Shown here: positions 4,866-51,573 of the stretch, one piece after another
Position numbering within the stretch: position 1 is the first letter of the stretch
How the letters are laid out: each line of letters opens with the position of its first letter
Origin: an uncultured Gammaproteobacteria bacterium
GTDB taxonomy: Bacteria > Patescibacteriota > Microgenomatia > JALYQM01
NCBI GenBank assembly: GCA_964535655.1
Contig: CAZHTP010000001.1
Span: 31,515 to 95,514, forward strand
Direction of reading: 5' to 3'
DNA: 64,000 nucleotides
The notes under the pieces: model-generated
What the model saw: only the letters and a program-made list of their open reading frames with translations
The model's database searches: none
What the model was told of the DNA's origin: nothing
Made by a program: the position numbers and the translations under genes

Positions 4866-7430
4866 TTAGAGCATCTCAGCGCCTGTGTGCGGGTTAATTA
4901 CGTGCATTTTCTTATCTGTGGTCTCAGTTGGAGGGAAGACGAAACCTACTCCAGATCCGTTATAGTTAATTCCGCAATGCAGGTTATCAATCCCGGTTGC
5001 GCCGGTTATGCACATTTTTACTCCTGGGGCATCAAATAGTCTTGTATTTACATTGTATTTGGCCGTTCTCTCTTGAACAGTAAATGAAATTTGAGCTGTC
5101 TTATCAATACCCTCATCGGAAATACGTGTCTGCCAGTCTAAGTCCATCTCGTCTGATGTTTTGATGGGCTTTGACCATTTTCCTGGTCCGCCAATTGGTC
5201 CTGAGCGAATGCTGTAGTATATCTGGACAAATTGGTGATTACCATCCCCTCTGGGTATTGATGAATACACAGTATAGACAACAAATGTAGCCGTGTTTCC
5301 GTTTACATCTGTAACTGTTGCGATTTTTGGTGAAGCGTTATTCGCCCAGGTTTCAAATTCAGTCTTTCGGGTTGTTATGCGTTTTGTGATTAGTTCTTCT
5401 GGACTCCATTGACCTAATGGTGAACGAGCCAAGAATACTAAGCTGTTGTCATCATTACTTCCTAATCGGCCGCCTACGAGAACATTCCCTTGATTATCTG
5501 TCTGTATGGTAAACGGTATCGTATTAACTAATCCCACTGTGCTTGCGGAGAATGGCACTTTTTCAGATTCAACAACTGTTTTTAACGTCCTTGAAACCTC
5601 ATCAAACGCTAGCTTACTGTACAAAACTCGAGGGCAGTTATCGTCATCACACCACAGGAGATGAATATTATCGTCATTATCGGAAGCAAAGCGTACTGCC
5701 CACTTTACTCTATTACCTAAAAATGCGTTTGCGGTGGTGTTTTCTTTAAATACACCATTTATAGAATTAAAATACTTATATACTCCTCCAACATTAGTAA
5801 AAGCTATTTTTTCACCATTTTTTCGGATAAAAACTGCGGGAGTACCATAAAATTCACCATCGGCTACTTTTACAATTGGAAGAAGTGGACCGTTGGGAAG
5901 TTCATTAGTGGCTATAAAGAAGCCTTTTTTGTTGTCAGGGTTTTTATATACTTCTACAGCTACAGCCAAATGACCCGCTCTTTCTGTTATAGTAGGCCAA
6001 TGCTGTGCAACACCTAACCGATGACCTACCGGTTGTCCATCTACAAAGAGCGCTCCCGCACGCTCGTTTCCTGCCCTTAGGTAGGCAGAGTGATTCCCTG
6101 CAGTAACAACGGAAGCGCCGATTGGTAGTACATCAGGATTCATGAAACGAGAATCCGCTGAAATTTCAGCATATCCACCTAACTTATCTATATAGTCGTC
6201 AGTGCTGAAAGGTCCATTGCCGGTAGAGGTTGTTCCTGACTTAGTTGATAAAGAAAAGTGCATTTGAGCCGGTAGGTCCTTCATCCATTTTAAGTCATCT
6301 GGAGAGTATATGCCTAATTTGTCACCAAAAGCACGCGAGAAATATAACTCTGCTGCTTCAGTGTCGAACCCAATTTCATTGGTAGGAGCATGAATAGATG
6401 CAATCTTTAAGAATGGAAGTTTTGCTGGATCAACGAGTACGGTTGATTCTGGATTTTCAAATTGCTGTTGCGTATATTTCGGCTCAATTGGTGGCTCATC
6501 ATAACAGACCTTACTTGATAACGTTGTTGCAGGAGGACTAATATTTTCTTCTGAACAGAGTAAATTAGCGGGAAAGGGAAGCGATGCTGTTGTTACTGCA
6601 ACATCAGGTGATGTAGCGCAGATTCCCTTAAATGTACCAATATCAGGAAAAAAAGGTAACGCTGCCGGTGGAATTTCTTGACACGAATAACCGGCACTGC
6701 AGAATGAAGTTGGATCCCCTGGATTGCAGTAGCGGGTATCGTTTGAGATAACTGACGGAATTTTTCGTGCTAGCTCGCGAAGCCCATTGGGGTATGGTAT
6801 TGCAAAATCTTTTCGATCTGAATCGTCAATTGGATTTGAATCGGTAGGTTTTTCCTCATCTACCTCGCAGAGTTCGCCATCGTCTACTATACCGTTTGCA
6901 ATTACAGTATCGCAGCCACTTGCCGAACTTGGAATGGATTCTCCGATAGATAAGGTCCTTTTGGTAGTTTTTAAATATCTAATTACGCCGGTTTCACTTA
7001 CCGTGAAAGATCCCTTACCTATTCCGTCTCTGCTAATACAATATGTCTTCCAACGGTCGGAAAACTGCGGGTCGTTGACTGTAGTGCTGGTAAACGCTCC
7101 GATTACATTATAATAGTTAAGAAAGATTTGTGAAAAAACATTTGTTTTAATCGATGCTTCAGAATCTATAGTTACCGAGTATCCTCCTTCGGAGAATGTA
7201 TGCGAGAATCCAACATCATTCTTGGTATCGACGTCACTGGTGTGATGAGTAGTAAAGTGTGGCAGAGGAAATTGTCCGCCAAAATTGTAAAAAGCTGGGC
7301 ATGTTTGTGCACTTGCGGACGAAATGGGAGCTACTACCAGAGTCGAGAAAACGAGTACAGAACCGATAGCTCCGTACATAAATTTAGTGCTTTTTCTAAA
7401 TCGCCTATTGAACATGTACCCTCTTTTCAT
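4866..7430 (-). CDS. large secreted protein of unknown function (signal peptide, Cys-containing, possible BNR-like segments)
   Basis: The 854-aa ORF starts with a basic stretch plus hydrophobic core '...KFMYGAIGSVLVFSTLVVAPISSASAQ', which is a signal peptide. No catalytic motif was recognised. Confidence 0.6.
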   Translation of the reverse strand: MKRGYMFNRRFRKSTKFMYGAIGSVLVFSTLVVAPISSASAQTCPAFYNFGGQFPLPHFTTHHTSDVDTKNDVGFSHTFSEGGYSVTIDSEASIKTNVFSQIFLNYYNVIGAFTSTTVNDPQFSDRWKTYCISRDGIGKGSFTVSETGVIRYLKTTKRTLSIGESIPSSASGCDTVIANGIVDDGELCEVDEEKPTDSNPIDDSDRKDFAIPYPNGLRELARKIPSVISNDTRYCNPGDPTSFCSAGYSCQEIPPAALPFFPDIGTFKGICATSPDVAVTTASLPFPANLLCSEENISPPATTLSSKVCYDEPPIEPKYTQQQFENPESTVLVDPAKLPFLKIASIHAPTNEIGFDTEAAELYFSRAFGDKLGIYSPDDLKWMKDLPAQMHFSLSTKSGTTSTGNGPFSTDDYIDKLGGYAEISADSRFMNPDVLPIGASVVTAGNHSAYLRAGNERAGALFVDGQPVGHRLGVAQHWPTITERAGHLAVAVEVYKNPDNKKGFFIATNELPNGPLLPIVKVADGEFYGTPAVFIRKNGEKIAFTNVGGVYKYFNSINGVFKENTTANAFLGNRVKWAVRFASDNDDNIHLLWCDDDNCPRVLYSKLAFDEVSRTLKTVVESEKVPFSASTVGLVNTIPFTIQTDNQGNVLVGGRLGSNDDNSLVFLARSPLGQWSPEELITKRITTRKTEFETWANNASPKIATVTDVNGNTATFVVYTVYSSIPRGDGNHQFVQIYYSIRSGPIGGPGKWSKPIKTSDEMDLDWQTRISDEGIDKTAQISFTVQERTAKYNVNTRLFDAPGVKMCITGATGIDNLHCGINYNGSGVGFVFPPTETTDKKMHVINPHTGAEML

Positions 7431-17637: not shown

Positions 17638-17716
17638 AATTCTTAAGCTTACCTCTTGCAAAGCGTAATTTGCAGGTAAATACTATTATTACTACTTTAT
17701 AGTTTGTGAGGTCTTT

Positions 17717-19000
17717 ATGGAAACTTCTTTGCCTTCGGGTGCGTTTTTGGGTCCAACGCAATTGTTTGATCGCGCTTGGGTGATTTTTGAAAAAAAATGG
17801 AAAACTATGCTTGTTGTTGGGTTACCAATGGTTGGTTTTGTCATCATGTGGGTGGTGTTTATTGCCCTACTGGTAGGTGGGGTTGGTGCAGGAATGATGA
17901 TTAACAAGTCCAGTACTTCTGCTTTGGCTGGATTTGGTATAGCTGGTGCTATTGTCGGTATTATTGGATATGTAGCTTTTATTGTAGGGTGTATTTGGGT
18001 GCAGCTGGCAGAGTTGTATGTGATTGCAAATCATACCCGAGAAGTTACTTTTAATGAGGCATACGGTTCAACTAGAAAATATATTCTGTCATTATTTTGG
18101 ATAGGTATACTAACGGCTGCGATTTCAGTAACCGGGTTTATAGCGTTAATCGTTCCGGGAATTATATTGGCAGTCTGGTTTATATTTGCTCAATATGTTT
18201 TAGTTGATCAGAATATTCGCGGTCTGAATGCGCTGCTTACTAGCCGTGAATATGTGCGTGGCCGATGGGGTATGGTATTTGGGCGCCTTGTTCTGTTCTT
18301 TCTGGTGTATTTTGTTCTCTTACTTCTCTTGTCGATAGTGCAAAATGTAGGAAAAGATACAGCACTTGGTGATTTACTTTCAATACTTTCTTTACTTGTT
18401 CAAATGGTTATGGGACTTTTGGCTTCATTGTACATCTTTGCAATGTATGAAAACCTTAAAGAAATTAAAGGAACAAATATTGCAATTGCTGGTGGGACGC
18501 GAACAAAATTTTCAATTCTGGGGTGGGTCGGTATTGTACTATTGTCCCTTGGTGTTCTTGCGCCAATTGGTTTACTTGCACTAAATCCAGCTGGAACACT
18601 TGTGGTTGCACGCAATGCAACTCGAGTAGGGGATGTTATTAAAACTCAGAAAGCTTTAACTATGTACTATGTTAGTGCTAATAAGTATCCTGAATCACTT
18701 CCTGTCCTGGTACAAGGTGGAATGCTTGATGCCGTTCCTGCTGATCCACTTACCAAAGCACCTTTGAGTTATGTGGTAAATTCTGATGGTTCAGATTTTA
18801 GACTTTGTACGCATCTAGAGCCATCTGCAAACGCTGCGTTTAAAAAGCCGCTTGATGCGAATGGTGATTTCTGTATCACTTCGAGAACTACTGAAGCAGG
18901 CATGATGGAAGATCAGTATCCAAGTGGAGCTTCTGGAACATTTCCTGAAGGATATAATGCTTCGGGTAGTGGAATGGTGGAGGATCCAAGCAGATATTAA
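17717..19000 (+). CDS. polytopic membrane protein fused to a C-terminal pseudopilin (GspG-like) globular domain
   Basis: About 7-8 TM helices span residues 30-290. The C-terminal part 'KTQKALTMYYVSANKYPESLPVLVQGGMLDAVPADPLTKAPLSYVVNSDGSDFRLCT' resembles the type II secretion/type IV pseudopilin core. Confidence 0.5.
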   Translation: METSLPSGAFLGPTQLFDRAWVIFEKKWKTMLVVGLPMVGFVIMWVVFIALLVGGVGAGMMINKSSTSALAGFGIAGAIVGIIGYVAFIVGCIWVQLAELYVIANHTREVTFNEAYGSTRKYILSLFWIGILTAAISVTGFIALIVPGIILAVWFIFAQYVLVDQNIRGLNALLTSREYVRGRWGMVFGRLVLFFLVYFVLLLLLSIVQNVGKDTALGDLLSILSLLVQMVMGLLASLYIFAMYENLKEIKGTNIAIAGGTRTKFSILGWVGIVLLSLGVLAPIGLLALNPAGTLVVARNATRVGDVIKTQKALTMYYVSANKYPESLPVLVQGGMLDAVPADPLTKAPLSYVVNSDGSDFRLCTHLEPSANAAFKKPLDANGDFCITSRTTEAGMMEDQYPSGASGTFPEGYNASGSGMVEDPSRY

Positions 19001-25082: not shown

Positions 25083-26969
25083 TTATAGCGCATAGTGTCG
25101 GGAAAGTGTCTCTGCAATTGCTTCAACTTCATTTTGAGGATTAACATAATAAATGTTTGACTTATTTGCATTCTGCATCAGCCAGGTAGATATGATCATC
25201 AGATCGTCAATGTTTTCTTTAGTTATCTTTATTTCAGTCTTATCTTGGTAAACAGTATTGAGTGAATCAATCCACATCCGTTTATTTTCTTCATTTTTCT
25301 TACCTTGATAATGGATGTATTCTTTTTGATTAAGTGTCGTTTCGAGATATTCGTCATCCAAAAAATAAGGCTCGTTTTTTTGTAAATAAGAATATTTAAA
25401 GGCAGCCAAGTTGTCTTTAACAAAATTTTGTTCTTGATTTGTTTTTTTGATTGAAGTGGCGAGTAGCTTCGCATGAACTATACCGTTTTTAATACAGAAA
25501 ATCTCTTTTGACTTTTTATCCAGTCCATCCTCGATAATAATTACATTGTTTTCTTTTACAGACTTGGTAATTCTTTGTTGTTTGGCAAGGATTCGTTCGA
25601 GGGCAATAAAATTATCCCGAAGTTCAGCGGCTTTCTCAAACTCGAGTAATTCACTTGACTCATCTATTTGTGCCTGGAGTTTGTTTAAGATTATTTGCTC
25701 ATTTCCAGAAAGAAACGCTTTAGCTTTTTCTATTATTTGTGCGTATTCTTGTTGAGACATTTTGCCGCCACAAACGCCTGGACATTCGCCCATCTCGTAA
25801 TAGAGACAAAGCTTCATGTTTTCTGGTTTTTTAGGATTAATTTTCTCTTTACAAGGACGTAAATTAAATGCTTTGTGAAGGTTCGCAATTGTTTGTTGTA
25901 ATGCGCTTGAGGATTTGAATGGGCCATAGTATGTAGCACCGTCAGCCTTAAGTTCTCGTACGGCGTAAATACGAGGAAATGCTTCATTGGAGATTTTAAG
26001 GAATGGGTAGGCTTTATAATCCCGTATCATTTTATTGAAAACTGGTAAGTGCTCTTTAATTTTTTTTGACTCTAGGAGCAAGGCAGAAAGCTCAGAACCA
26101 GTGGGAATATATTCAATTTTTTCTACAGTTTGTACTAGTTTTTCTAATTTTTTAGTTTTGTGGCTGTTATAAAAATAAGATCGTACACGTTTTTGGAGAC
26201 ATTTAGATTTACCTACATATATGATTTGATTGTCATTATCTCTCATGAAATAAACACCGGGAGAAAATGGTAAGAGATCAATCTGATTTTTAATTTGTTG
26301 ATATTTTTTTGCTTCAGGAGGGGTAGTAAGTTCCTGAAGTGATCCAAAAATCTTTTTTCCACTTTCGATGAGCATATCAAACATGTTAAGTAAACTCTTT
26401 CCTGTTGCGATAGCGTCGTCGAGTGCTCGATGCCTATTTGGAATCTCGATATGAAAATGCCGTGCGAGATCATCGAGGGTGTGATGGTGTAGCTGAGGAA
26501 TAAGTTTTCTTGAAAGTTGTACCGTACAGATTTTGGGAGAGGCGAATTCGAATCCTGCTAAGCGTAAATTTTTTTGCAAAAAGTTGTAATCGAAGGCTGC
26601 ATTGTGTGCAACAAAAACAGTATCCTGAATCATTGGTAAAATTGTCGGTGCGATATCTGGCAGCAGTGGGGCGAATTCAACATCACTGTTTCGTATCCCG
26701 GTCATTTGAGAGATAAATGGAGGTATTGTCTCACCTGGATTTAAGAAGGTTTGGTATGTATCTACAATTTCACTATTGAGAATTTTTACTATGCCAATTT
26801 CAATGATTTGACTTACACCAGGCTTTGTGCCGGTCGTTTCGAGATCGACTACACTATACGAAAGATCGCGGAGTGGTGTGTTATAAAGAGTTTCTTGTGT
26901 CATTGATGAAATACGTTGGGCAGAATTCATGACGTGTCTTACTATACGAATTTTTTTATACGAAGTCAA
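25083..26969 (-). CDS. DnaQ-like 3'-5' exonuclease fused to a GIY-YIG/UvrC N-terminal-half (Cho-like) nuclease
   Basis: N-terminal exo motif I 'VVDLETTGT' and later 'HNAAFD'. The middle is GIY-YIG, 'GVYFMRDNDNQIIYVGKSKCLQKRVRSYF'. It is followed by a UvrC-like Cys cluster 'CLYYEMGECPGVCGG' and a UVR-like helix 'EFEKAAELRDNFIALERI'. There is no C-terminal RNaseH/HhH half. Confidence 0.75.
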   Translation of the reverse strand: MTSYKKIRIVRHVMNSAQRISSMTQETLYNTPLRDLSYSVVDLETTGTKPGVSQIIEIGIVKILNSEIVDTYQTFLNPGETIPPFISQMTGIRNSDVEFAPLLPDIAPTILPMIQDTVFVAHNAAFDYNFLQKNLRLAGFEFASPKICTVQLSRKLIPQLHHHTLDDLARHFHIEIPNRHRALDDAIATGKSLLNMFDMLIESGKKIFGSLQELTTPPEAKKYQQIKNQIDLLPFSPGVYFMRDNDNQIIYVGKSKCLQKRVRSYFYNSHKTKKLEKLVQTVEKIEYIPTGSELSALLLESKKIKEHLPVFNKMIRDYKAYPFLKISNEAFPRIYAVRELKADGATYYGPFKSSSALQQTIANLHKAFNLRPCKEKINPKKPENMKLCLYYEMGECPGVCGGKMSQQEYAQIIEKAKAFLSGNEQIILNKLQAQIDESSELLEFEKAAELRDNFIALERILAKQQRITKSVKENNVIIIEDGLDKKSKEIFCIKNGIVHAKLLATSIKKTNQEQNFVKDNLAAFKYSYLQKNEPYFLDDEYLETTLNQKEYIHYQGKKNEENKRMWIDSLNTVYQDKTEIKITKENIDDLMIISTWLMQNANKSNIYYVNPQNEVEAIAETLSRHYAL

Positions 26970-32561: not shown

Positions 32562-34061
32562 ATGAAAGTTCTTTATGTTGCAACGGAACAAACACCTTTT
32601 TCTACTGTGGGAGGACTTGGTAGGGTCGCGTATTTTCTTCCCAAAGAGTTACAAAAACTGGATATTGATGTTCGCGTGATCATGCCTAAATATGGCAAGA
32701 TTGATGAGCAAAAAGCTCATATGGAGACAGTATTGCATGGACTGCATGTTCCCACTCAAGAAGGGTTCAATGATCTTATTTGTAATGTAAAAATGAGCCA
32801 ATCTGAAAATCGAATTACGTATTTTCTTGAGAATCAGGAATATTATGAGCTTCGTGCTAATGAGTATGGGTATTTTGATGATCCAATGCGATTTACGCTG
32901 CTTTGCCGTGGAGCGTTGGAATTCCTATTACATTCGCAAAACGACTGGATTCCTGATGTTATTCACAGCAACGACTGGCAAACAGCGTTAATTTCGCAAA
33001 TGTTATCGCAGCATTATGCTCAAGAACCTCGGTTAGCTCATACCGTTACTCTATACACAATTCATAATCTTGCATACCAGGGAATGTACGACTATCGCTT
33101 TGTGTCAGATTTAGATTTTGATGACGGAAAAAGTGATATTCCAAGGTTTTACGATCCACGTTTATCGAAAATTAATATGATGCGTCGTGGCATTATGTAT
33201 TCGGATATTGTAAATACGGTTTCACCGACCTATGCTTCGGAGATTCTGACGGAAGAATATGGGGCAGGGCTAGAACGACTGTTGCAGGAGCTGAGAACTA
33301 AATTGTTTGGTATTTTAAATGGGATTGATTACGAAGAATTTAACTCGGTGACCGATAAACTGGTGGTCGAAAATTTTGACGCCTTTTCCACTGAAAAAAG
33401 AAAAATTAACAAGTGTGCGCTGCAGAAAGAATTTCAATTACCCGAGGATGAAGATATACCAATATTAAGTATTTCCAACAGACTAGATAGTCAAAAAGGT
33501 ATCGATCTTGTTACTGAAATAATTGAACCCATTCTTGAAGAATATGCGCCGGTACAATTTATCGTAAATGGTGGCGGAGATAATCGTTTTAGAGAATTTT
33601 TTGCAAAGCTTGCTAAAAAATATCCCTATCAGGTTGGGGTAAACTTGAATCCTAATTTTACTTTGCCTCGTCATATTTTTTCGGGGGCTGACGTGATTTT
33701 ATTGCCTTCGCGTTTTGAACCATGTGGAATGACACAGATGGAAGCAATGCGTTATGGTTGTATTCCGCTTGTTCGTAATACAGGAGGCCTTGCCGATACT
33801 GTTGCTGATTATGATCCGGTTACGGGTGAAGGAACTGGTTTTGTTTTTAACAACTATGAATCATTTGCGTTATTTGGATCAATTGTACGGGCACTCGAAA
33901 CGTATAAACATAAGGATGAGTGGAGCAGATTAGTACAGCGAGTAATGGCTCAGGATTTCTCTTGGACAAAATCAGCACAAGAATATAAAAAGTTATATGA
34001 ACGCGCGATTGAACTTCGTCGTCAAACTTCTCAGGCGAAAAGTCATTTTGGAATTAGATAA
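32562..34061 (+). CDS. glgA: glycogen/starch synthase (GT5, ADP-glucose type)
   Basis: 'MKVLYVATEQTPFSTVGGLGRVAYFLPKEL' is the canonical GlgA N-terminus (KVGGL-like motif). The C-terminal 'LLPSRFEPCGMTQMEAMRYG' is also present. Confidence 0.8.
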   Translation: MKVLYVATEQTPFSTVGGLGRVAYFLPKELQKLDIDVRVIMPKYGKIDEQKAHMETVLHGLHVPTQEGFNDLICNVKMSQSENRITYFLENQEYYELRANEYGYFDDPMRFTLLCRGALEFLLHSQNDWIPDVIHSNDWQTALISQMLSQHYAQEPRLAHTVTLYTIHNLAYQGMYDYRFVSDLDFDDGKSDIPRFYDPRLSKINMMRRGIMYSDIVNTVSPTYASEILTEEYGAGLERLLQELRTKLFGILNGIDYEEFNSVTDKLVVENFDAFSTEKRKINKCALQKEFQLPEDEDIPILSISNRLDSQKGIDLVTEIIEPILEEYAPVQFIVNGGGDNRFREFFAKLAKKYPYQVGVNLNPNFTLPRHIFSGADVILLPSRFEPCGMTQMEAMRYGCIPLVRNTGGLADTVADYDPVTGEGTGFVFNNYESFALFGSIVRALETYKHKDEWSRLVQRVMAQDFSWTKSAQEYKKLYERAIELRRQTSQAKSHFGIR

Positions 34062-34063
34062 TT

Positions 34064-35482
34064 ATGAAAGTACTGTTTGTAGCATCAGAGTGTACGCCCT
34101 TTGCAAAAGTAGGTGGATTGGGAGATGTAATAGGTGCTCTACCTCAAGCATTGGTAGCTGAAGGTATTGAAGCGTCAGTTATATTGCCCTTATATAAAAA
34201 CCTTTTGAATACTCAGACAGAGCTTGTTTTAATGCATGGACAACATACTTTTGAGGTATACTTTGAAGGAAAGAGTTCAGTTTGCGAATTGCATAAAACA
34301 ACATTTCATAACTCTCCCATAGTACTGTATTTAGTTAAGAACGAAGAATATTTATCTAATGGCGGTATTTATCTTTCTGATGACGCGATGGTTGTTGGGA
34401 ACGATGAGCCCCGACGATTTATGTTTTTCTGTCGAGCTGTACATCGTTTATTGCAAAGCGGTGTGCTACAAGCAGAAGTAGTACATTCTCACGACTGGCA
34501 TACTTCATTTCTTCTTAAGTTGATTCATCAGGATTTAGACTTAAAACATATCCGTACTGTTCTGTCTGTACACAACCTTGCTAATAAAGGTACAGTTTCG
34601 GATGATGTTTTGAATAAGGAAATTGATGGTACCGTAAACACGCATAGGTTGATGGCTGTAGGCGTAGATGCTGCTGATGCTATAGTCCCGGTATCGAAAA
34701 ATTATGCTAAGGAGTTACTCCGAGGCGAATTTTGCGATGGGTTGGAATATGTAGTTGAAGAGAATTGTAAAAAATTCACTGGTATAACTAATGGAATTGA
34801 TACCTTATATTTTGACCCAAGTAAAGATCCTTTCTTGGTTCATACTTACTCCGCTCGTGACTGGGAAGAAGGAAAACTGCATGCAAAAACTGAATTATTT
34901 AAAAAAGAAGGGTGGAGCGATACTGACCCTCATTCGGTTTTACTTTTTGGATTTGTCGGTCGGATTGCCTTGCAAAAGAATATTGGACTGATAGTCGATT
35001 CTCTTTCTAGTCTTTCAAATCATGCTCTTCGTTTCATATTCTTGGGAGTTGGTGAAAAAGAACTTACGCACCGTCTGCATGCGCTTGCATTGAAACACAA
35101 TAATCGTATAAAGTTTATTAATCGATTTGATGAATCCTATGCTCGACTAATTTATGCGGGGAGCGATGTATTTTTAGTGCCATCTTTGTATGAGCCATGT
35201 GGGCTTACTCAAATGATCGCAATGCGTTATGGCGCTTTACCGATAGGGAGAAGTGTTGGCGGTCTTGTTGATACTATCGATGATAGTGACGAGTCGCAAA
35301 ATGGTTTCTTATTTGAAGAGTCGACCCCTACTGAATTTCAAGATGTTTTGAACTATGTTTTTGATGAATGGCATGATAAACCAGATTACTGGCATAAATT
35401 GGTAATTAATGCCATGACGAGAGATTTTTCCTGGGGGAATGCTGCAAAGGAATATATTAAGATATATAAAAATATGAAGTGA
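34064..35482 (+). CDS. glgA: glycogen/starch synthase paralog (GT5)
   Basis: 'MKVLFVASECTPFAKVGGLGDVIGALPQAL' and 'LVPSLYEPCGLTQMIAMRYG' match GlgA. It is a second, divergent copy directly downstream of the first. Confidence 0.8.
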   Translation: MKVLFVASECTPFAKVGGLGDVIGALPQALVAEGIEASVILPLYKNLLNTQTELVLMHGQHTFEVYFEGKSSVCELHKTTFHNSPIVLYLVKNEEYLSNGGIYLSDDAMVVGNDEPRRFMFFCRAVHRLLQSGVLQAEVVHSHDWHTSFLLKLIHQDLDLKHIRTVLSVHNLANKGTVSDDVLNKEIDGTVNTHRLMAVGVDAADAIVPVSKNYAKELLRGEFCDGLEYVVEENCKKFTGITNGIDTLYFDPSKDPFLVHTYSARDWEEGKLHAKTELFKKEGWSDTDPHSVLLFGFVGRIALQKNIGLIVDSLSSLSNHALRFIFLGVGEKELTHRLHALALKHNNRIKFINRFDESYARLIYAGSDVFLVPSLYEPCGLTQMIAMRYGALPIGRSVGGLVDTIDDSDESQNGFLFEESTPTEFQDVLNYVFDEWHDKPDYWHKLVINAMTRDFSWGNAAKEYIKIYKNMK

Positions 35483-35483
35483 T

Positions 35484-37577
35484 CTATTCTACTGATTGAA
35501 CTCCGCGAACTTTTTGGAGTCGGCTATACAATAATAGCCGTTGACTATCACTTTCAAGACCTACTACAAACTGAATCTTTAAAATGCCGTCGTGAGCAGG
35601 TAACTGTTCAAGTTGTTCTATTGCAACCCTAATATCAGATACGGCTTTAGTGATATCGCGCAGAGCCCCTTCGCGATAAATCATTTCAACTTTCATTCTT
35701 TGGGCTTTGACCATGCCTTCTGGTAATGTCCAGGTGACAGGAATTTGTTTCTCTTTATGTATTATATTCGTTACGTTTGGACATACTGCGCTATGGACTG
35801 AAACTACTTGCGTTTGTGTTACAAAGCCAACTATTTCTTCGCCTGGTAGAGGATTACAACATTTAGCAAGCCGGGTTGCAACACCTTTGAGACCATGTAC
35901 TACAACCGCTGCTTTTTGTGTAACTGGTTTTTTTGTCCATCTGTTTTTAAGTGCTGTTTGAACTTTTCCGACAAGCGTCATGGGGTTGAGTAGTGATTCG
36001 CTGGGAGCTGTTTGTGGGAAATTATCTACTCGTTTAGGTCCATGATTGGGCGATTCCTCGATATCTTCTATAAGTTCTTTTTCTTGTACTTGCTCATATG
36101 AGTTGGTAGCTTTCTGAATGTGCTTTCGAGCGTTATTGGTGATTGCGAATTGTAACCAATCTGATGAGGGAGCTTTCTTTTCTTTAGCTGTTAAGATTTC
36201 AACTATTTCGCCGTTTCTTAATTGGTAATTAAGTGGAACGATATGATTATCTACTTTTGCACCGACTGTTTTATTGCCTATTTCGGAATGGATCGAATAG
36301 GCGAAATCGATCGGAGTCGCGCCTAGAGGGAGGTCTTTAACATCGCCTTTGGGGGTGTAAACGAAAATACGATCTTTAAAAAGGTCGTGCTTTAAGCCTT
36401 TAAGAAAACCCTCACTGTTGGGTGCTTCTTTCTGCCAACGTGTTAACTCTTGAATCCACTCGAGTTGTTCTTTAGAGGCTTTAAATCCTTCTTCCATTTC
36501 TTTATCGGTTACACCTTTTTTAGATTTCGATTGTTCATAAATAATATGTGAGGCGATACCATATTCTGCTTGTTCGTGCATTATTTTTGTCCGAATCTGC
36601 ACTTCCATTACTCGCCCTTTTTCCACAAATACTTTGGTGTGCAAACTCCGATACCCATTGGCTTTAGGGACTGCAATGTAATCGCTGACTCGCCCGGCAA
36701 GCGGAGTCCAGATCTGATGGACTAAGCCGAGTACAACATAGCAGTTCTCAATACTTTCGTCTTGGAGAATAATGCGTACAGCTATCAGATCGGGAATTTT
36801 GGATAAATCATAATTAAATTCCGGTCGCTGCAATTTTTTCCATAACGAGTACATGTGTTTCGCGCGGCCTTCAACATTGGCGTTAATTTTTTCTGTTGCG
36901 AGGGCATCAATTAATTTTCGCTTAACTACGGAGATATACCGATCACCTTCTTTAAAAAGAACACGGGTCTGCTCTTTTAACTGTTCATACTCTTTTGGAT
37001 ACACCCACTGGAAAGCGAGATCTTCAAGTTCGCCGCGTATTTGACCCATTCCTAAGCGAGAGGCGAGGGGGGCATAAATTTCGAGTGTTTCTTTGGATTT
37101 TCTAATTCGTTTTTCTGGTGGCATGTATTTCATGGTGCGCATGTTATGCAATCGATCGGCGAGCTTAATCATGACTACGCGAATATCTTTAGCCATGGCA
37201 AGAAACATTTTGCGCAGGTTTTCGACTAAATAATCCTGTTTATCATCGGATATAAATTTAAGTAATCCTAAATTGGTCTCGCCTTGTACGAGAGAAGCAA
37301 CGTCTGCTCCAAATGCCAATTCAATTTCCTCGATTGGGACTTGGGTATCTTCTACGACATCGTGAAGCAGTGCTGCAATGATTGAAGCATCATCAAGTCC
37401 CATTTCGGCAACGATTAACGCTACTGCAGCAGGATGAATAAAAAACGGTTCACCTGATTTTCTTTTTTGTCCCTCGTGAGATTTTGCCGCATATTCGTAT
37501 GCGCGTTTAATATTGGCTGGGTCTACTTTTTTTCTTTTTTTCTTAGCTGTTTCAATGATTTCCTGTGCAGTGATCAT
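35484..37577 (-). CDS. rel: bifunctional (p)ppGpp synthetase/hydrolase Rel (long RSH)
   Basis: HD domain 'HPAAVALIVAEMGLDDASIIAALLHDVVEDT'. Synthetase motifs 'EGRAKHMYSLWKKL', 'DLIAVRIIL', 'ANGYRSLHT' and 'EVQIRTKIMHEQAEYG'. C-terminal TGS/ACT-like regions are present. Confidence 0.9.
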   Translation of the reverse strand: MITAQEIIETAKKKRKKVDPANIKRAYEYAAKSHEGQKRKSGEPFFIHPAAVALIVAEMGLDDASIIAALLHDVVEDTQVPIEEIELAFGADVASLVQGETNLGLLKFISDDKQDYLVENLRKMFLAMAKDIRVVMIKLADRLHNMRTMKYMPPEKRIRKSKETLEIYAPLASRLGMGQIRGELEDLAFQWVYPKEYEQLKEQTRVLFKEGDRYISVVKRKLIDALATEKINANVEGRAKHMYSLWKKLQRPEFNYDLSKIPDLIAVRIILQDESIENCYVVLGLVHQIWTPLAGRVSDYIAVPKANGYRSLHTKVFVEKGRVMEVQIRTKIMHEQAEYGIASHIIYEQSKSKKGVTDKEMEEGFKASKEQLEWIQELTRWQKEAPNSEGFLKGLKHDLFKDRIFVYTPKGDVKDLPLGATPIDFAYSIHSEIGNKTVGAKVDNHIVPLNYQLRNGEIVEILTAKEKKAPSSDWLQFAITNNARKHIQKATNSYEQVQEKELIEDIEESPNHGPKRVDNFPQTAPSESLLNPMTLVGKVQTALKNRWTKKPVTQKAAVVVHGLKGVATRLAKCCNPLPGEEIVGFVTQTQVVSVHSAVCPNVTNIIHKEKQIPVTWTLPEGMVKAQRMKVEMIYREGALRDITKAVSDIRVAIEQLEQLPAHDGILKIQFVVGLESDSQRLLLYSRLQKVRGVQSVE

Positions 37578-39685: not shown

Positions 39686-41125
39686 ATGGCATCGGGGATT
39701 AGTGTTCCAAACTATATCATTTACATTCTAAAAGCGCTTTCAGAGGCAGGATTTGAAGGCTATATTGTGGGAGGTCCGGTTAGGGATATCCTAGTTGGCC
39801 GCGAGCCTAATGACTGGGATGTTACCACTAATGCAACTCCTGATGAGATTCAAAAAATCTTTCCCGAAAACTTTTATGATAATACGTTTGGTACGGTTGG
39901 TGTGGTACTTCGGGTAAAAGAGAATCAAGTGCTGTCGGAAAAAGATGATAGCGTTGATCCGATGGTTGTTCATGTAACTACGTTTCGCAGTGATGGGGAG
40001 TATTCTGATTTTCGTCGACCGGATTCAGTGGAGTGGGGCAAATCTATCGAAGATGATCTGCAACGACGCGACTTTACGATTAACGCTGTGGCTTTACGAA
40101 TTGAACAGGATATTTATTCTCAACTTCCATTACTTTGGGAAGAAACGTTCTCTAAACTATTTCCTGGTGATTTTGTTCTTATTGATCCGTATGGTGGTTT
40201 AGTCGATCTACAAAAAAAATTAATTCGTGCGGTAGGGAGTCCTGTTGAACGATTCCAGGAAGATGCGTTGCGCATGCTACGGGCGGTTCGATTTTCCTGT
40301 CAGTTAGGCTTTGAAATTGAAGGGGAAACTAAAAATGCCATCAGTACAAAATGTGAGAATTTAACTCATATTTCGGGCGAACGAATTCGCGATGAATTTT
40401 TTAAGATTTTATCTTCGGATCGTCCGTATGAAGGAGTTCAATTGCTAGATCAGCTAGGATTGCTGCAGTTTATTTTTCCTGAATTAGTTGCGGGTCGGGG
40501 AATGGATCAACGAGGGCATCATATTTACGATATTTTCGAACATAGTCTACATGCTCTCAAGTTTTGCCCTTCACCAGATCCGATTGTCCGGCTCGCCGCT
40601 CTTTTACATGATATTGGAAAAGTGCCTACGCATGAGGTTCGTGATGGAATAAACACGTTTTATAACCATGATATTGTTGGTGGAAAAATGGTGCGTGAAA
40701 TTGCGTATCGCTTGCATTTATCTAAAAAAGACCGGGAAAAATTATATACGCTAGTTCGATTCCATATGTTTAGTGTGGATACTATTCAAACTGATGCTGC
40801 AATTCGTCGATTTATAGTAAAAGTTGGTGCTGAAAATATTAATGATATGGTGGATTTGCGGATCGGTGATAGGCTAGGGAGTGGGACAAAAGATCCAGAA
40901 GGATGGAGACTTAAAGAGTTTAAAAAGCGCATTGAAACCTTGTTAATGCCAACATTTACAGTGAAAGATTTAGCCATTGATGGCCGTGATGTAATGCGAA
41001 TATTAAATATTTTGCCGGGTCCAAAGGTTGGCGAAATCTTGAATGCTTTGTTTGACGAAGTACTTGATGACCCTGAGAAGAATACTACGACATACTTAGA
41101 GAAAAGAGCTCTCTCTTTTATCTGA
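39686..41125 (+). CDS. cca: CCA-adding tRNA nucleotidyltransferase (class II, with HD domain)
   Basis: 'GYIVGGPVRDILVGREPNDWDVTT' is the NTase head. 'DALRMLRAVRFSCQLGFEIE' is present. HD motif 'HSLHALK...LLHDIGK'. Confidence 0.85.
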   Translation: MASGISVPNYIIYILKALSEAGFEGYIVGGPVRDILVGREPNDWDVTTNATPDEIQKIFPENFYDNTFGTVGVVLRVKENQVLSEKDDSVDPMVVHVTTFRSDGEYSDFRRPDSVEWGKSIEDDLQRRDFTINAVALRIEQDIYSQLPLLWEETFSKLFPGDFVLIDPYGGLVDLQKKLIRAVGSPVERFQEDALRMLRAVRFSCQLGFEIEGETKNAISTKCENLTHISGERIRDEFFKILSSDRPYEGVQLLDQLGLLQFIFPELVAGRGMDQRGHHIYDIFEHSLHALKFCPSPDPIVRLAALLHDIGKVPTHEVRDGINTFYNHDIVGGKMVREIAYRLHLSKKDREKLYTLVRFHMFSVDTIQTDAAIRRFIVKVGAENINDMVDLRIGDRLGSGTKDPEGWRLKEFKKRIETLLMPTFTVKDLAIDGRDVMRILNILPGPKVGEILNALFDEVLDDPEKNTTTYLEKRALSFI

Positions 41126-42896
41126 GTAATTTTTGCATGATTTCATTTACACCTGATATTACTTGTGGGTTTGACAATAAATCTAGATAATCTTGAAGTT
41201 GTTTTCGGTCAATTAACCCTGAATATACTTTTGGCCTTCTGATAAGATTAAGCAAGAACTGGACTTCGGCTTTAATTCTTTCCCACTCAACTTGAAGTGG
41301 AGTCATGGCAATAGTAGGCTTGTTGGTACCTAAAATTCTTCTATGTGCACCGCTTCGCATCAGTTCCCCAAATTGAGGGTCATTTAATGTTCTAATTCGC
41401 TGACTTTTATCGACCTGGAGAATGTCCATTAAGTACGCGATGTAATGATCGTTGAATAAGCGAGTTATCAGTGGCTCGTGGTCTCCGTTTTGGAATAGTT
41501 TACGGACATAATATCCTTCATGGAAGAATTCTTTATTGTATTTTGTGTTTAGGTGGTCCTTAACAGTTAACACTTGTACCTCTATTGATTTTCCATCAAT
41601 TATTAAATCAAATTGTATGACTTTGCGCTTGGAATTCGTAGCGCGGTTATGTGTATTCTCTGTATAACTGAAGAATATAGGTTCTCCTTCTTGTGGATCA
41701 GCCAAAAATCCCTCTTCGAATATGTTTTGTGTGTACCCGTGCTTGGAGTATGTAAATGAGTTATTTGACTTTCTTATACTGCTGACTAATTTGCTCATGA
41801 GGCTTGGAATGTCTGATTCATCTCTCACGATAAAACGTAATCCATTACTATCATCCGAAATTGCGCCGTTTTTGATTCCTCCTTTGGCGATGGCCCGAGG
41901 CATTTCTTTGTATCTACTGGTAACTTCCACCTGGATAATTTTTCCTTGAAAATTAACTTCACGGTAGGGCATTGCATGGCGCATTACAATGTGTCCTGGT
42001 TCTTGCGGTAGTGGCCCAGAGTCAGTCCAGTCAATGCATTCCCCTGAATGTAGGCTGTGCAGTGCATACACGTCTCTGTCGTGCAACTGGTCAGCTTTTG
42101 AATGGGTGTTTGGTCTGTGCCAAAATTCGGTGGCGTTTAGGATACCGTATAGCTCGTCCATGATTCCGTTTTGGTTTTCTGATGCGACAATTTCTCCAAT
42201 CCCGTGTAGTGTTGTGACAAATTTTGTTTGAGCTTCACTGCGCGCTTTATATGTAAGATCTTGATCAAAAGCAATTCGCAATATTTGTCGAATGCCTCGA
42301 GATGCTTTTACTTCTTGCTGCCACTCGAGCGCTGCATGCAGATCACTGATTATGTCAATTGAGTTGTTTACATGAGTTAGGGCCTTCAATTGATTTTTTC
42401 TTGGAGCGCCGCTGGTTCTTATGTAGTCTGTAAATCTTACTTTTATTCCCTCGATTATGAGTAGTAACCTGTTCCTTTCTTGTTCTGCTAATTCTTCGGC
42501 GTGTTGTGCTGCCACTTTTTGATACGTATCCGTATGAGCGCGGGAGGTAGATTGGGGTAACTTAAATCTTTCTATTAAGAAGTTAGCAACTCTTGCTTCT
42601 TGGGCGTCGATTTCTGATTTATCTGTAGTTTTAAGTGCTCTTTCAATTTCTTGTAATCCTATTGGTGATTCAGCATCGCCGGATGCTATATATCTTACGA
42701 TCTGCAGTAAGTCTTTTGCTGGTTCTTGTTCTGAATCTGGTGCTTCTTCTTGGAGTTGTCTATGCGTGTGGTCTGCTGTCTGCCTGCGTTGTGCTTCAAG
42801 TGCTTGAAAGGCGCCGTTATTGCCAATGAAGTTCCAGATATTAACGTCTGGATTAACTTGTTTTGGTAAAGATAATTTTTCAGTCATATATATCAC
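41118..42896 (-). CDS. protein with C-terminal RelA/SpoT-like nucleotidyltransferase (SYNTH-like) domain and a ~330-aa N-terminal region of unknown function
   Basis: The C-terminal half aligns by eye with synthetase motifs of the Rel in this window. 'RFIVRDESDIPSL' matches 'RIILQDESIENCY'. 'SKHGYTQNIF' matches 'KANGYRSLH'. 'SIEVQVLTVKDHLNTKYNKE' matches 'VMEVQIRTKIMHEQAEYG'. 'QGKIIQVEVTSRYKEM' matches 'EGRAKHMYSLWKKL'. The N-terminal half is unrecognised. Start is GTG at 42896 or ATG at 42887. Confidence 0.5.
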   Translation of the reverse strand: MIYMTEKLSLPKQVNPDVNIWNFIGNNGAFQALEAQRRQTADHTHRQLQEEAPDSEQEPAKDLLQIVRYIASGDAESPIGLQEIERALKTTDKSEIDAQEARVANFLIERFKLPQSTSRAHTDTYQKVAAQHAEELAEQERNRLLLIIEGIKVRFTDYIRTSGAPRKNQLKALTHVNNSIDIISDLHAALEWQQEVKASRGIRQILRIAFDQDLTYKARSEAQTKFVTTLHGIGEIVASENQNGIMDELYGILNATEFWHRPNTHSKADQLHDRDVYALHSLHSGECIDWTDSGPLPQEPGHIVMRHAMPYREVNFQGKIIQVEVTSRYKEMPRAIAKGGIKNGAISDDSNGLRFIVRDESDIPSLMSKLVSSIRKSNNSFTYSKHGYTQNIFEEGFLADPQEGEPIFFSYTENTHNRATNSKRKVIQFDLIIDGKSIEVQVLTVKDHLNTKYNKEFFHEGYYVRKLFQNGDHEPLITRLFNDHYIAYLMDILQVDKSQRIRTLNDPQFGELMRSGAHRRILGTNKPTIAMTPLQVEWERIKAEVQFLLNLIRRPKVYSGLIDRKQLQDYLDLLSNPQVISGVNEIMQKLLR

Positions 42897-51331: not shown

Positions 51332-51423
51332 ACAATAATACTATCACATTCTTTTTAAATTAGAAAGAGAAAAAGAGTCTTGTCAGGATGTCGTTTTTAT
51401 TGCATACTCAATTTTAATTAAAT

Positions 51424-51573
51424 ACATCAAGAGTGATAGGGAGAGTTCCGGCTCGTTAATCTATCCAGCAACCGATTCAATTAGAAAACGGTGCTCCATC
51501 CGGCCCGAAAGGGAAGATGCGGTCATGTACATGACAATTTAGCCTCGTCTTCCTAGTAGGGAGAGAGGTTTTT
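51424..51573 (+). promoter_or_regulatory. SAM-I (S-box) riboswitch with terminator/SD-sequestering hairpin upstream of metK
   Basis: 'AUCAAGAG..AGGGAG..GGC..UUAAUCUAUCCAGCAACC....CGGUGCUCCAUCCGGCCCGAAAGGGAAGAUG' matches the S-box conserved segments (AUCAAGAG, GCAACC, GGUGCU, GAAAG..GAUG). Hairpin 'cctcgtcttcc..gggagagagg' plus a T7 run lies immediately before the metK ATG. The promoter 'ttgtca-17-catact' is at ~51380-51408. Confidence 0.55.

What the first reader, a model, noticed from the sequence alone, without database searches (positions are those of the whole stretch)
17717..19000. Fusion of a polytopic membrane domain with a GspG/pseudopilin-like globular domain
Pseudopilins normally have a single N-terminal hydrophobic helix after a prepilin-peptidase site. 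Here the pseudopilin-like core ('KALTMYYVSANKYPESLPVLVQGGMLDAVPADPLTKAPLSYVVNSDGSDFRLC') is appended to a ~280-aa domain with 7-8 TM helices. No G/FTLIE prepilin cleavage motif is present.

This could be a pilus-anchoring or pilus-sensing membrane protein, which is relevant to the type IV pilus-dependent lifestyles of CPR bacteria.
Basis: partly seen in the sequence, partly recalled or inferred. Interest (0 to 1): 0.5.

Follow-up and report, generated by a model that had tools for sequence, protein, structure and literature searches.

The report
Uncleavable pilin head on a membrane anchor
This gene encodes a seven-helix membrane protein whose last helix and outer domain are a type IV pilin that has lost the signals for cleavage and filament assembly, and at least 134 sequence clusters, mostly from CPR bacteria, share this undescribed design of unknown function.

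Summary
ORF 17717..19000 (+), 427 aa, joins a six-helix membrane domain distantly related to E. coli YciC/UPF0259 (hhalign 92.6%, E 4.6e-7) to a complete pilin module: a seventh hydrophobic helix, an amphipathic helix and a small beta-sheet head.

The pilin assignment has three supports:
- A profile search hits solved pilins and pseudopilins at E about 1e-6.
- The AlphaFold model has mean pLDDT 80.8.

The junction KFSILG is a degenerate prepilin site. Lys replaces Gly-1 and Gly replaces Glu+5.

The gene is not a one-off. At least 134 clusters at 50% identity share the design, and none has Glu or Asp at +5. Named source genomes are almost all Patescibacteria/CPR.

Charge bias places the head outside the cell. 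No pilus genes lie in the window, and no neighbour recurs in 20 related loci. Some relatives carry two heads, or a signal peptidase, PsbP-like or Ig-like domain instead.

My best reading is a permanently tethered pilin-fold ectodomain, not a filament subunit. A pilus-linked role is not excluded.

I rate it a new variant of a known kind, of moderate interest.

The parts
17708..17711 (+). GAGG ribosome-binding site, 5 nt before the ATG
   Evidence: Read directly from the sequence. It supports 17717 as the true start, so no N-terminal extension is missed.
17717..19000 (+). Whole gene: 427-aa fusion protein, stop codon included
   Evidence: ORF list. An identical protein, P0001, is on record from a 327-kb NCBI contig.
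17753..17806 (+). Cytoplasmic N-terminal helix, residues 13-30, with conserved A20 and W21 and the basic patch EKKWK
   Evidence: AlphaFold helix starting at residue 13. Nearly invariant A20 and W21. 4 K/R in residues 1-30.
17807..18448 (+). Six-helix membrane domain, residues 31-244, distantly related to YciC/UPF0259. It includes the VPGII hairpin (residues 146-150, 18152-18166) and the cytoplasmic SREYVRGRW motif (residues 176-184, 18242-18268).
   Evidence: Pfam UPF0259 E 0.003 and NCBIfam YciC E 2.2e-6, both below the curated cut-offs. hhalign against E. coli YciC gives 92.6%, E 4.6e-7. Invariant P147, G148, S176, R177 and G182.
18449..18508 (+). Basic cytoplasmic loop, residues 245-264, in the place of a prepilin leader peptide
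   Evidence: 4 K/R. 100% identical to P0002 and 70% identical to P0003.
18506..18523 (+). Degenerate prepilin site K264-F-S-I-L-G269: Lys replaces Gly-1, Phe+1 is kept, Gly replaces Glu+5
   Evidence: Alignment to the canonical pilin P0013, GFTFIE, and to mature GspG from Phe1. Family counts: +5 is G68/A38/S12/T6 and never E or D; -1 is Gly in only 10 of 134.
18509..18586 (+). Seventh transmembrane helix, residues 265-290, in the position of pilin alpha1-N and ending in LNP
   Evidence: Hydropathy. AlphaFold helix 259-289. Gly at +8 in 118 of 134 and small residues at +5 in 124 of 134.
18587..18691 (+). Amphipathic alpha1-C helix, residues 291-325 (ARNATRVGDVIKTQKALTMYY...)
   Evidence: AlphaFold helix 291-321. 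The family consensus A-R-D-A-x-R-x-x-D-...-L-E-L-Y-Y-x-D-N-G-x-Y-P matches canonical pilins.
18692..18889 (+). Pilin head, residues 326-391: short helix and three beta-strands, with the Cys364/Cys386 pair (18806-18808 and 18872-18874)
18890..18997 (+). Low-complexity C-terminal tail rich in Gly, Ser, Met and Glu, residues 392-427, predicted disordered
   Evidence: pLDDT below 50 for residues 392-427. Only 33% identical to P0003.

Best explanation
The gene makes a seven-pass inner-membrane protein. Residues 13-244 form a conserved six-helix core of the YciC/UPF0259 superfamily, with both of its ends in the cytoplasm. The seventh helix and everything after it form a complete pilin module (alpha1-N-like helix, alpha1-C helix, beta-sheet head with a cysteine pair), so the head sits on the outer face of the membrane.

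The pilin's leader peptide has been replaced by the six-helix core. Gly-1 and Glu+5 have been lost across the whole family. From this I infer that prepilin peptidase cannot cut the module and that the module cannot be pulled out of the membrane into a filament.

My reading is that the module works as a permanently tethered surface domain, probably a binding or spacer module in the cell-envelope space, serving whatever the conserved six-helix core does.

Shown here: the architecture, the pilin homology and fold, the loss of the processing and assembly residues, the wide occurrence of the design, and the lack of linkage to pilus genes. Inferred: the outside location of the head, the lack of cleavage and polymerisation, and the tethered-module role.
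For: Pilin homology:
- A profile of 7 C-terminal modules hits Thermus PilA4 (1.3e-6), geopilin (1.5e-6) and PulG (1.8e-6). N-terminally truncated pseudopilin 3g20 still scores 3.1e-4.
- The AlphaFold model has mean pLDDT 80.8 and the pilin shape.

Processing and assembly residues:
- In 134 independent 50%-identity clusters, +5 is never Glu or Asp and -1 is Gly in only 10.
- Only 1 of the 134 has any acidic residue in the seventh helix.
- No canonical prepilin motif occurs anywhere in these proteins.

Topology: 15 K/R in the four predicted cytoplasmic segments against 2 in the outer loops. A conserved cysteine pair in the head fits an extracytoplasmic location.

Module-like behaviour:
- 10 representatives have a second match to the module profile after the first, nine of them a second alpha1-C plus head; P0017's second head, read in full, has no hydrophobic helix.
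- Others add TSP3, PsbP/DcrB-like, Ig-like, TPR or BSP-peptidase domains after the head.
- The same six-helix core carries signal peptidase S26, a PsbP-like domain or Ig-like domains instead of a pilin.

No pilus linkage.

Divergence: the pilin module diverges faster than the core, 77% against 92% identity with P0002 and 42-46% against 53% with P0003. Neighbouring genes are 60-94% identical where this gene is 50%. This is the pattern expected of a surface-exposed part.
Against: - Nothing here measures function.
- The alpha1-C helix and head stay very close to the consensus of canonical pilins. That could mean selection for pilin-pilin contacts rather than only for the fold.
- Type IV pili are reported as nearly universal in Saccharibacteria (PMC11623550), so a partner machine is probably present in most host genomes even if it is unlinked.
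- I could not examine the rest of the 327-kb source contig.
- Homology of the seventh helix to alpha1-N rests partly on hydrophobic composition. Its conserved Gly+8 and Pro+13 are not in the register of the canonical Gly14 and Pro22.
- Non-cleavage is inferred from the known Gly-1 requirement of prepilin peptidases; it was not tested.
Confidence: 0.55

Rival explanations
1. Pilus-linked role. The tethered pilin module mimics a pilin in the membrane. Through its alpha1 helix and head it docks onto the base of a type IV pilus or onto the membrane pool of pilins. It would then act as an anchor, an assembly terminator or nucleator, or a sensor of pilin levels.
For: - The module is a complete pilin, including a hydrophobic helix of nearly canonical length (Phe+1 to Asn-Pro is 26-27 residues against 25-26 in pilin P0013).
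- Phe, Tyr or Leu occupies +1 in 111 of 134.
- The alpha1-C consensus is canonical.
- There is precedent for membrane-retained pilin-like paralogues. Archaeal FlaF has an archaellin domain without the class III signal peptide and anchors the archaellum by binding the S-layer (PMC4425475).
- Membrane pilin pools are sensed in Caulobacter (PMC7196804).
- Type IV pili are nearly universal in Saccharibacteria (PMC11623550).
Against: - No pilus gene lies in the 64-kb window.
- No conserved neighbour occurs in 20 loci, and only L006 has pilin genes within a few kb.
- Glu+5 is absent in every member. From established pilus models, an incoming subunit uses Glu5 to pair with the N-terminal amine of the subunit before it.
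- Tandem heads and bulky C-terminal add-ons are hard to fit under a filament.
- The same anchor carries unrelated ectodomains.
Confidence: 0.25
2. Transport or envelope-biosynthesis role. The six-helix core is a small-molecule or lipid-linked-precursor exporter, as E. coli YciC is proposed to be for D-alanine. The pilin head is an accessory outer domain acting in cell-wall polymer assembly.
For: - Overexpressed E. coli YciC lowered intracellular D-alanine in a screen (PMC10299036).
- Here the gene follows mreB, a GT4 glycosyltransferase and a WecG/TagA-family transferase on the same strand, with gaps of 99, -14 and 79 nt. That order is kept in the relative L001.
- A sortase, a PEGA protein, PAP2 and further glycosyltransferases lie nearby.
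- L019 has WecG, MreB and PEGA genes 5-8 kb from its family member.
Against: - The neighbourhood is conserved only in the closest lineage.
- Similarity to YciC covers only 77 columns, the TM3-TM4 hairpin.
- Curated family cut-offs are missed by a wide margin.
- The YciC export result is a single overexpression study.
- Foldseek of the full model against the PDB found nothing significant. The weak CysZ and CTL1 matches have probability 0.3.
Confidence: 0.1
3. Processed precursor. A cryptic cut, made either by prepilin peptidase before Phe265 or by signal peptidase I after the seventh helix, releases a mature pilin or a soluble head.
For: - Phe is kept at +1.
- Small residues follow the helix (L-N-P-A-G here, S-L-S-S-A in the consensus).
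- 10 of 134 members do have Gly at -1.
Against: - Lys is at -1 here, and Gly-1 is missing in 124 of 134.
- The 'leader' would be 264 residues with six membrane helices, unlike any known class III signal peptide.
- Canonical pilins have the same small-residue stretch after alpha1-N and are not cut there.
- The predicted helix continues into alpha1-C with only a kink at Pro291.
Confidence: 0.07
4. Artefact. A frameshift or misassembly has joined a UPF0259 gene to a downstream pilin gene.
For: Two related loci, L022 and L024, do show the gene split into two ORFs.
Against: - The same continuous architecture occurs in 134 clusters below 50% mutual identity, from many assemblies.
- An identical protein is on record.
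- The junction has no leader peptide or start codon remnant and is 100% conserved with P0002.
- No unfused UPF0259 gene followed directly by a canonical pilin gene was seen in 61 loci.
Confidence: 0.01

Closest known systems
Type II secretion major pseudopilins (GspG/EpsG/PulG) and type IVa pilins such as Thermus PilA4 and the Shewanella pilin
   Different: There is no short class III leader. Lys replaces Gly-1 and Gly replaces Glu+5. The N-terminus is covalently continuous with a 264-residue six-helix domain. There is no gene linkage to pilus or secretion machinery. The window protein does not reach the Pfam T2SSG or N_methyl models.
E. coli YciC / UPF0259 (Pfam PF06790), with the related GPDPase_memb (PF10110) membrane domains
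   Same: Six-helix inner-membrane domain with the V-P-G-I-I hairpin between helices 3 and 4. hhalign 92.6%. Weak Pfam and NCBIfam hits.
   Different: It scores far below the curated cut-offs (17.8 against 31.4 bits; 27.6 against 227 bits). It has its own strongly conserved cytoplasmic SREYVRGRW motif, plus a seventh helix and an ectodomain that YciC lacks.
Archaeal FlaF/FlaG, membrane-anchored archaellin-domain proteins
   Same: A filament-subunit fold that has lost its class III signal peptide, stays in the membrane and is not part of the filament. FlaF binds the S-layer (PMC4425475). This is the nearest functional precedent for a retained pilin-like paralogue.
   Different: FlaF has one membrane helix rather than seven, a beta-sandwich archaellin fold rather than the bacterial alpha-beta pilin fold, and it is encoded inside the archaellum operon. 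This gene has no such linkage.
Modular type IV pilins, meaning pilins with extra domains grafted onto the C-terminus (from my own knowledge of the Streptococcus sanguinis work; not checked in the paper library)
   Same: The pilin module is used as a carrier for other domains. Some family members add TSP3, PsbP-like, Ig-like, TPR or peptidase modules after the head.
   Different: Modular pilins keep a cleavable leader and Glu5 and are polymerised. Here the extra domain is at the N-terminus, where it blocks processing.

Membership tests
Type IV pilin / pseudopilin (class III signal peptide proteins; Pfam N_methyl PF07963, T2SSG PF08334) | Short basic leader peptide ending in Gly at -1, cut by prepilin peptidase | tested here: not met
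   Lys264 is at -1 and is preceded by 263 residues containing six membrane helices. Gly is at -1 in only 10 of 134 relatives.
Type IV pilin / pseudopilin (class III signal peptide proteins; Pfam N_methyl PF07963, T2SSG PF08334) | Glu at +5 of the mature protein | tested here: not met
   Gly269 is at +5. None of the 134 relatives has Glu or Asp there.
Type IV pilin / pseudopilin (class III signal peptide proteins; Pfam N_methyl PF07963, T2SSG PF08334) | Hydrophobic residue (Phe or Met) at +1, N-methylated after cleavage | tested here: inconclusive
   Phe265 is present and aligns with Phe1 of GspG and of P0013. Methylation needs a free N-terminus and cannot be tested with these tools.
Type IV pilin / pseudopilin (class III signal peptide proteins; Pfam N_methyl PF07963, T2SSG PF08334) | Helix of about 50 residues: hydrophobic alpha1-N followed by amphipathic alpha1-C | tested here: met
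   AlphaFold helices 259-289 and 291-321, and 3-27 plus 30-60 in the module model. Hydropathy peak at 266-290.
Type IV pilin / pseudopilin (class III signal peptide proteins; Pfam N_methyl PF07963, T2SSG PF08334) | Alpha-beta head: alpha1-C packed on an antiparallel beta-sheet | tested here: met
Type IV pilin / pseudopilin (class III signal peptide proteins; Pfam N_methyl PF07963, T2SSG PF08334) | Score above the curated Pfam threshold for T2SSG or N_methyl | tested here: not met
   No hit for the window protein or its C-terminal piece, even at E up to 10. Relatives reach E 0.011-0.18. Only the second heads of L002 and P0017 pass, at 32.7 and 25.6 bits against 21.
Type IV pilin / pseudopilin (class III signal peptide proteins; Pfam N_methyl PF07963, T2SSG PF08334) | Encoded with, or dependent on, PilB/PilC/PilD-type machinery; polymerises into a filament | tested here: inconclusive
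   No such gene is in the window or recurs near relatives. The rest of the genome could not be read. Polymerisation cannot be tested with these tools.
YciC / UPF0259 (PF06790; NCBIfam NF002774) | Score above the curated family threshold | tested here: not met
   Pfam 17.8 bits against a cut-off of 31.4. NCBIfam 27.6 bits against 227.
YciC / UPF0259 (PF06790; NCBIfam NF002774) | Six-helix inner-membrane domain with a conserved VPGII-type hairpin between helices 3 and 4 | tested here: met
   Six helices before residue 245. hhalign against E. coli YciC gives 92.6%, E 4.6e-7 over 77 columns centred on VPGII.
YciC / UPF0259 (PF06790; NCBIfam NF002774) | D-alanine export activity, proposed for E. 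coli YciC | not testable with these tools
   The only evidence is the overexpression screen in PMC10299036.

The most novel reading that the evidence does not exclude
CPR bacteria maintain a large dedicated family of 'dead-end' pilins. These are pilin modules welded to a six-helix membrane core that take part in type IV pilus biology from within the membrane. For example, they could cap or anchor the pilus base, seed assembly, or report the membrane pilin pool, in the way FlaF serves the archaellum. That would be a new component class of type IV filament systems in the group of bacteria that depends most on them.
Probability: 0.2. Interest if true: 0.75.

Novelty: new variant of a known kind. 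Interest (0 to 1): 0.45.

Why it matters
Type IV pili are central to how CPR/Patescibacteria attach to and live on their hosts, and pilin-like genes are among the most expanded and least understood parts of their small genomes.

This work defines a widespread architecture, with at least 134 clusters at 50% identity, in which a pilin has been made uncleavable and unassemblable and fixed to a conserved membrane core. My literature searches found no description of it. Where the records of its relatives carry a name, they call it a hypothetical protein.

If the module turns out to contact pili, it would add a new part to type IV filament machines. If it does not, it shows that the pilin fold has been reused as a general surface domain, which is a caution against counting every 'pilin-like' CPR gene as a pilus subunit.

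The fusions also give the uncharacterised YciC/UPF0259 superfamily its first set of informative partners: pilin, signal peptidase I, PsbP/DcrB-like and Ig-like domains. All of them are extracytoplasmic.

Tried and rejected
- Pfam and NCBIfam on the whole protein gave only sub-threshold UPF0259/YciC hits. Pfam on the C-terminal piece alone gave nothing.
- Single-sequence search of the PDB gave only E = 2 for GspG. A profile was needed.
- The second and third homologue searches, with profiles, added almost no new sequences, so the AlphaFold alignments stayed shallow at 9 and 11 rows.
- The look-up of encoding contigs had no record for the exact protein, so the rest of the 327-kb contig could not be checked for pil genes.
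- The afdb50 fold library was not available.
- Foldseek of the full-length model against the PDB found nothing significant for the membrane core. CysZ and CTL1 scored probability 0.3.
- tblastn of 19 window neighbours against 61 loci found synteny only in L001, and partly in L019.
- Clustering 192 neighbour ORFs from 20 fusion loci gave no family shared by 3 or more loci.
- A regex for prepilin motifs found none in the window and only a few in the loci.
- Five literature searches and a term search inside the Saccharibacteria pilus paper found no description of this fusion. The 2026 preprint on a novel CPR pilus concerns unrelated donor-strand-exchange pilins.
- I considered a co-variation analysis between helix 7 and helices 1-6 and dropped it, because about 140 sequences are too few.
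Full report
**1. The observation**

The window has a 427-codon ORF at exactly 17717..19000 on the + strand. A GAGG ribosome-binding site sits 5 nt upstream of the ATG.

Kyte-Doolittle hydropathy and the AlphaFold model give seven hydrophobic helices, at about residues 31-56, 70-95, 121-143, 145-165, 186-208, 216-243 and 266-290. No G/FTLIE motif occurs in this protein or in any reading frame of the window.

**2. The C-terminal part is a pilin**

A single-sequence search of the PDB gave only a hint: GspG at E = 2. That alignment was still informative, because GspG residues 6-64, which include its membrane helix, matched query residues 271-331.

A profile built from the C-terminal modules of seven homologues (alignment A1) gave clear hits:
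- Thermus PilA4 6xxd, E 1.3e-6
- geopilin 9egp, E 1.5e-6
- PulG 5wda, E 1.8e-6
- truncated pseudopilin 3g20, which lacks the membrane helix, E 3.1e-4 (all)

The PulG alignment starts at Phe1 of the mature protein. That residue pairs with the conserved Phe of the module, F265 here. A canonical pilin found with the same profile, P0013 (MGKKGFTFIELLVAV...LLVMNPNQLRAKTRDAKRVNDLKAVQAALEQYFADNESYP; Pfam N_methyl), aligns with the module from its cleavage site onward.

**3. The junction is a dead prepilin site**

Aligned to GFTFIE of P0013, the window protein reads K-F-S-I-L-G (residues 264-269). Lys replaces Gly-1, Phe+1 is kept and Gly replaces Glu+5.

The pilin's leader peptide has been replaced by 264 residues.

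One caution applies. The match of this helix to alpha1-N rests partly on hydrophobic composition, and its conserved Gly+8 and Pro+13 are not in the register of the canonical Gly14 and Pro22. Homology of the helix itself is likely but not proven. Homology of alpha1-C and the head is firm.

**4. The N-terminal part**

Pfam UPF0259 (E 0.003, 17.8 bits against a cut-off of 31.4) and NCBIfam YciC (E 2.2e-6, 27.6 bits against 227) are the only hits, and both fall below threshold.

A profile comparison with E. coli K-12 YciC, fetched, gives 92.6% probability and E 4.6e-7 over 77 columns centred on the V-P-G-I-I hairpin between helices 3 and 4. The domain is therefore a distant relative in the YciC/UPF0259 superfamily, not a member by the curated criteria.

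It has its own invariant cytoplasmic motif, S-R-E-Y-V-R-G-R-W. The full-length model (pLDDT 74.5) has no significant match among solved structures.

**5. Topology**

The four segments predicted to be cytoplasmic are the N-terminus and the loops after helices 2, 4 and 6. Together they hold 15 Lys and Arg. The three outer loops hold 2. By the positive-inside rule the N-terminus is inside and the pilin head is outside, as in real pilins. A conserved cysteine pair in the head (C364 and C386 here) fits that location. This is inference, not measurement.

**6. It is a family, not an accident**

A profile search of 1.84 billion representative proteins gave 41,464 hits at E up to 0.001, 8,028 at E up to 1e-10 and 1,913 at E up to 1e-30.

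All but 12 of the 159 proteins collected at that point, most of them the listed representatives, matched the pilin-module profile. In 134 proteins the module starts at its own beginning and lies after the membrane domain. In those 134:
- Position +5 is G 68, A 38, S 12, T 6, and never E or D.
- Position -1 is Gly in only 10.
- Position +1 is F 72, Y 22, L 17.
- Only one has any acidic residue in helix 7.
- None has a canonical prepilin motif anywhere.

After the helix the consensus reads S-L/P-x-x-A-R-x-K-A-R-D-A-R-R-x-S-D-I-x-Q-I-Q-x-A-L-E-L-Y-Y-x-D-N-G-x-Y-P-x-S-L, and later D-P-x-T-x-x-P-Y-x-Y-...-G-x-D-Y-x-L-C-A-x-L-E. This is the canonical pilin pattern.

In a scan of one genome per species, 61 loci encode relatives. 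About 18 of them extend into the pilin head. Where the record names a lineage, these come from Saccharibacteria, Uhrbacteria, Microgenomates, Amesbacteria, Liptonbacteria, Paceibacterota or 'Patescibacteria group'. The exceptions are three co-assembly MAGs labelled Gammaproteobacteria, whose labels I did not verify. Relatives from Geobacterales, Nitrospirae, Elusimicrobia and Bacillota stop after the seventh helix, and many of them then carry other C-terminal regions.

Its nearest relative is an unclassified 'bacterium' MAG, L001.

**7. Context**

The gene follows mreB (14457), a GT4 glycosyltransferase (15603) and a WecG/TagA-family transferase (16789) on the same strand. It is followed by a convergent ABC-F ATPase, then a guanylate-kinase-like gene and polA. 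A sortase, a PEGA protein, PAP2 and further glycosyltransferases lie nearby.

Pfam scans of about 40 ORFs, a prepilin-motif scan and an HMM scan of all six frames found no pilin, PilB/C/D/M/T or secretin in the 64 kb.

Gene order is kept only in L001. There the neighbours are 60-94% identical, while this gene is only 50% identical. Clustering 192 ORFs lying within 6 kb of the gene in 20 fusion loci gave no family shared by three or more loci. Only L006 has a pilin gene cluster nearby.

**8. What the variants say**

Ten representatives have a second match to the module profile after the first. Nine of them have a second alpha1-C plus head; P0017's, read in full, has no hydrophobic helix. Two of these second heads pass Pfam's T2SSG threshold.

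Others add domains after the head: TSP3 repeats, PsbP/DcrB-like, Ig-like Kre9_KNH, TPR or a BSP-family peptidase.

The same six-helix core plus a seventh helix carries a signal peptidase S26 domain in a Levybacteria genome (L061), a PsbP-like domain in L009 and Ig-like domains in L040.

Between close relatives the pilin module diverges faster than the core: 77% against 92% identity with P0002, and 42-46% against 53% with P0003.

**9. Mechanism**

It is established knowledge that prepilin peptidases need Gly at -1, and that Glu5 is needed for pilin assembly, where it pairs with the N-terminal amine of the preceding subunit. Both residues are gone family-wide, and the N-terminus is continuous with a six-helix bundle.

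I therefore infer that the module is neither cleaved nor polymerised. It would stay as a tethered ectodomain on the outer face of the membrane.

The conserved small residues at +5 and +8 of helix 7 (124 and 118 of 134) look like a helix-packing face. That fits a helix docked against the bundle, but this too is inference.

Tandem heads, bulky add-ons, interchangeable ectodomains and the absence of pilus linkage all point to a general surface module, either a binding domain or a spacer, serving the conserved core. What the core does is unknown. The only experimental lead in the superfamily is that overexpressed E. coli YciC lowers cellular D-alanine (PMC10299036). I give this reading 0.55.

**10. 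Rivals**

The module is a whole pilin with a canonical alpha1-C. Type IV pili are nearly universal in Saccharibacteria (PMC11623550). There is also a precedent in archaeal FlaF, an archaellin-domain protein without a class III signal peptide that stays in the membrane and binds the S-layer (PMC4425475).
- A transport or envelope-synthesis role for the core, with the head as an accessory: 0.10.
- Cryptic processing: 0.07.
- Assembly artefact: 0.01. The census excludes it in practice.

**11. Comparison and novelty**

By fold and sequence the C-terminal module works like, and descends from, a pilin or pseudopilin. It fails three defining features of that family: the class III leader with Gly-1, Glu5, and the curated Pfam thresholds. 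I therefore do not file it as a pilin.

The N-terminal domain is a YciC/UPF0259 superfamily relative that also fails the curated thresholds.

Five literature searches and a term search inside the Saccharibacteria pilus paper found no description of the combination. The one close relative whose record carries a name is called a hypothetical protein.

I rate it a new variant of a known kind and of moderate interest (0.45). The architecture is clear, widespread and unexpected for pilus specialists. Its function is open, and domain shuffling of pilin-like modules in CPR genomes is not in itself surprising.

Noticed in passing
L061:9953-11464 (Candidatus Levybacteria); also L009:9800-11812 and L040:9929-11968: The same six-helix YciC-like core plus a seventh helix carries a signal peptidase I (S26) domain instead of a pilin (L061), a PsbP-like domain (L009), or Ig-like domains (L040). 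Like pilins, these are proteins that normally have a single N-in/C-out anchor helix.
   Followed up: partly
P0052, P0022, P0102 (family representatives): Some fusions add DcrB/PsbP-like domains after the pilin head. From memory, E. coli dcrB is synthetically lethal with yciB, and yciB lies next to yciC. This may be a fusion-based hint linking the YciC superfamily to envelope or lipoprotein homeostasis.
   Followed up: no
P0012 (207 aa, found): Another uncleavable pilin-head protein of a different design: a proline-rich cytoplasmic N-terminus, one membrane helix, a charged helical spacer and then a pilin head, with no prepilin site. Tethered pilin heads may therefore be a wider theme.
   Followed up: no
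window 17717-19000 compared with L001:9992-11365: The gene is only 50% identical to its orthologue in L001, while 16 of the 17 flanking genes compared are 60-94% identical (the remaining match, at 39%, is to a paralogous gene). Within the gene, the pilin module diverges faster than the membrane core. This fits a fast-evolving surface protein.
   Followed up: partly
L022:232-1511 and L024:1177-2477: In two loci the family gene is split into two adjacent ORFs between helices 5 and 6. This could be a sequencing frameshift or a natural split gene.
   Followed up: no
window 51419-51551 (+): A SAM-I/IV riboswitch (43.8 bits, just above the gathering score of 41.1) lies directly upstream of the S-adenosylmethionine synthetase gene at 51576-52691.
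   Followed up: no
window 25083-26969 (-): A 628-aa protein combines an RNase T/DnaQ-type exonuclease, a GIY-YIG nuclease and a UVR motif.
   Followed up: no
window 35484-37577 (-) and 43260-45695 (+): A full RelA/SpoT protein (HD_4, RelA_SpoT, TGS and ACT domains) and, 6 kb away, an 811-aa protein with only an HD_4 domain hit.
   Followed up: no
window 4866-7430 (-), 41118-42896 (-), 48247-49374 (-), 57085-58698 (+): Four large ORFs of 854, 592, 375 and 537 aa have no Pfam match at E up to 1e-5.
   Followed up: no
window 32562-35482 (+): Two tandem glycogen/starch-synthase-type (Glyco_transf_5) paralogues.
   Followed up: no
N-termini of P0005, P0006, P0007 and P0008: These relatives, unlike the window protein, start with a conserved cytoplasmic domain of about 45 aa (pattern ...Q-L-x-D-Y-I-K-x-Q-L-x-x-G-x-S-x-E-x-I-x-x-x-L-x-x-x-G-W-x-x-x-x-I-x-x-A-F). 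Pfam gave no N-terminal domain hit for P0005, P0006 or P0008. Relatives from Desulfuromonadaceae and Geothermobacter have a zinc ribbon there instead.
   Followed up: partly
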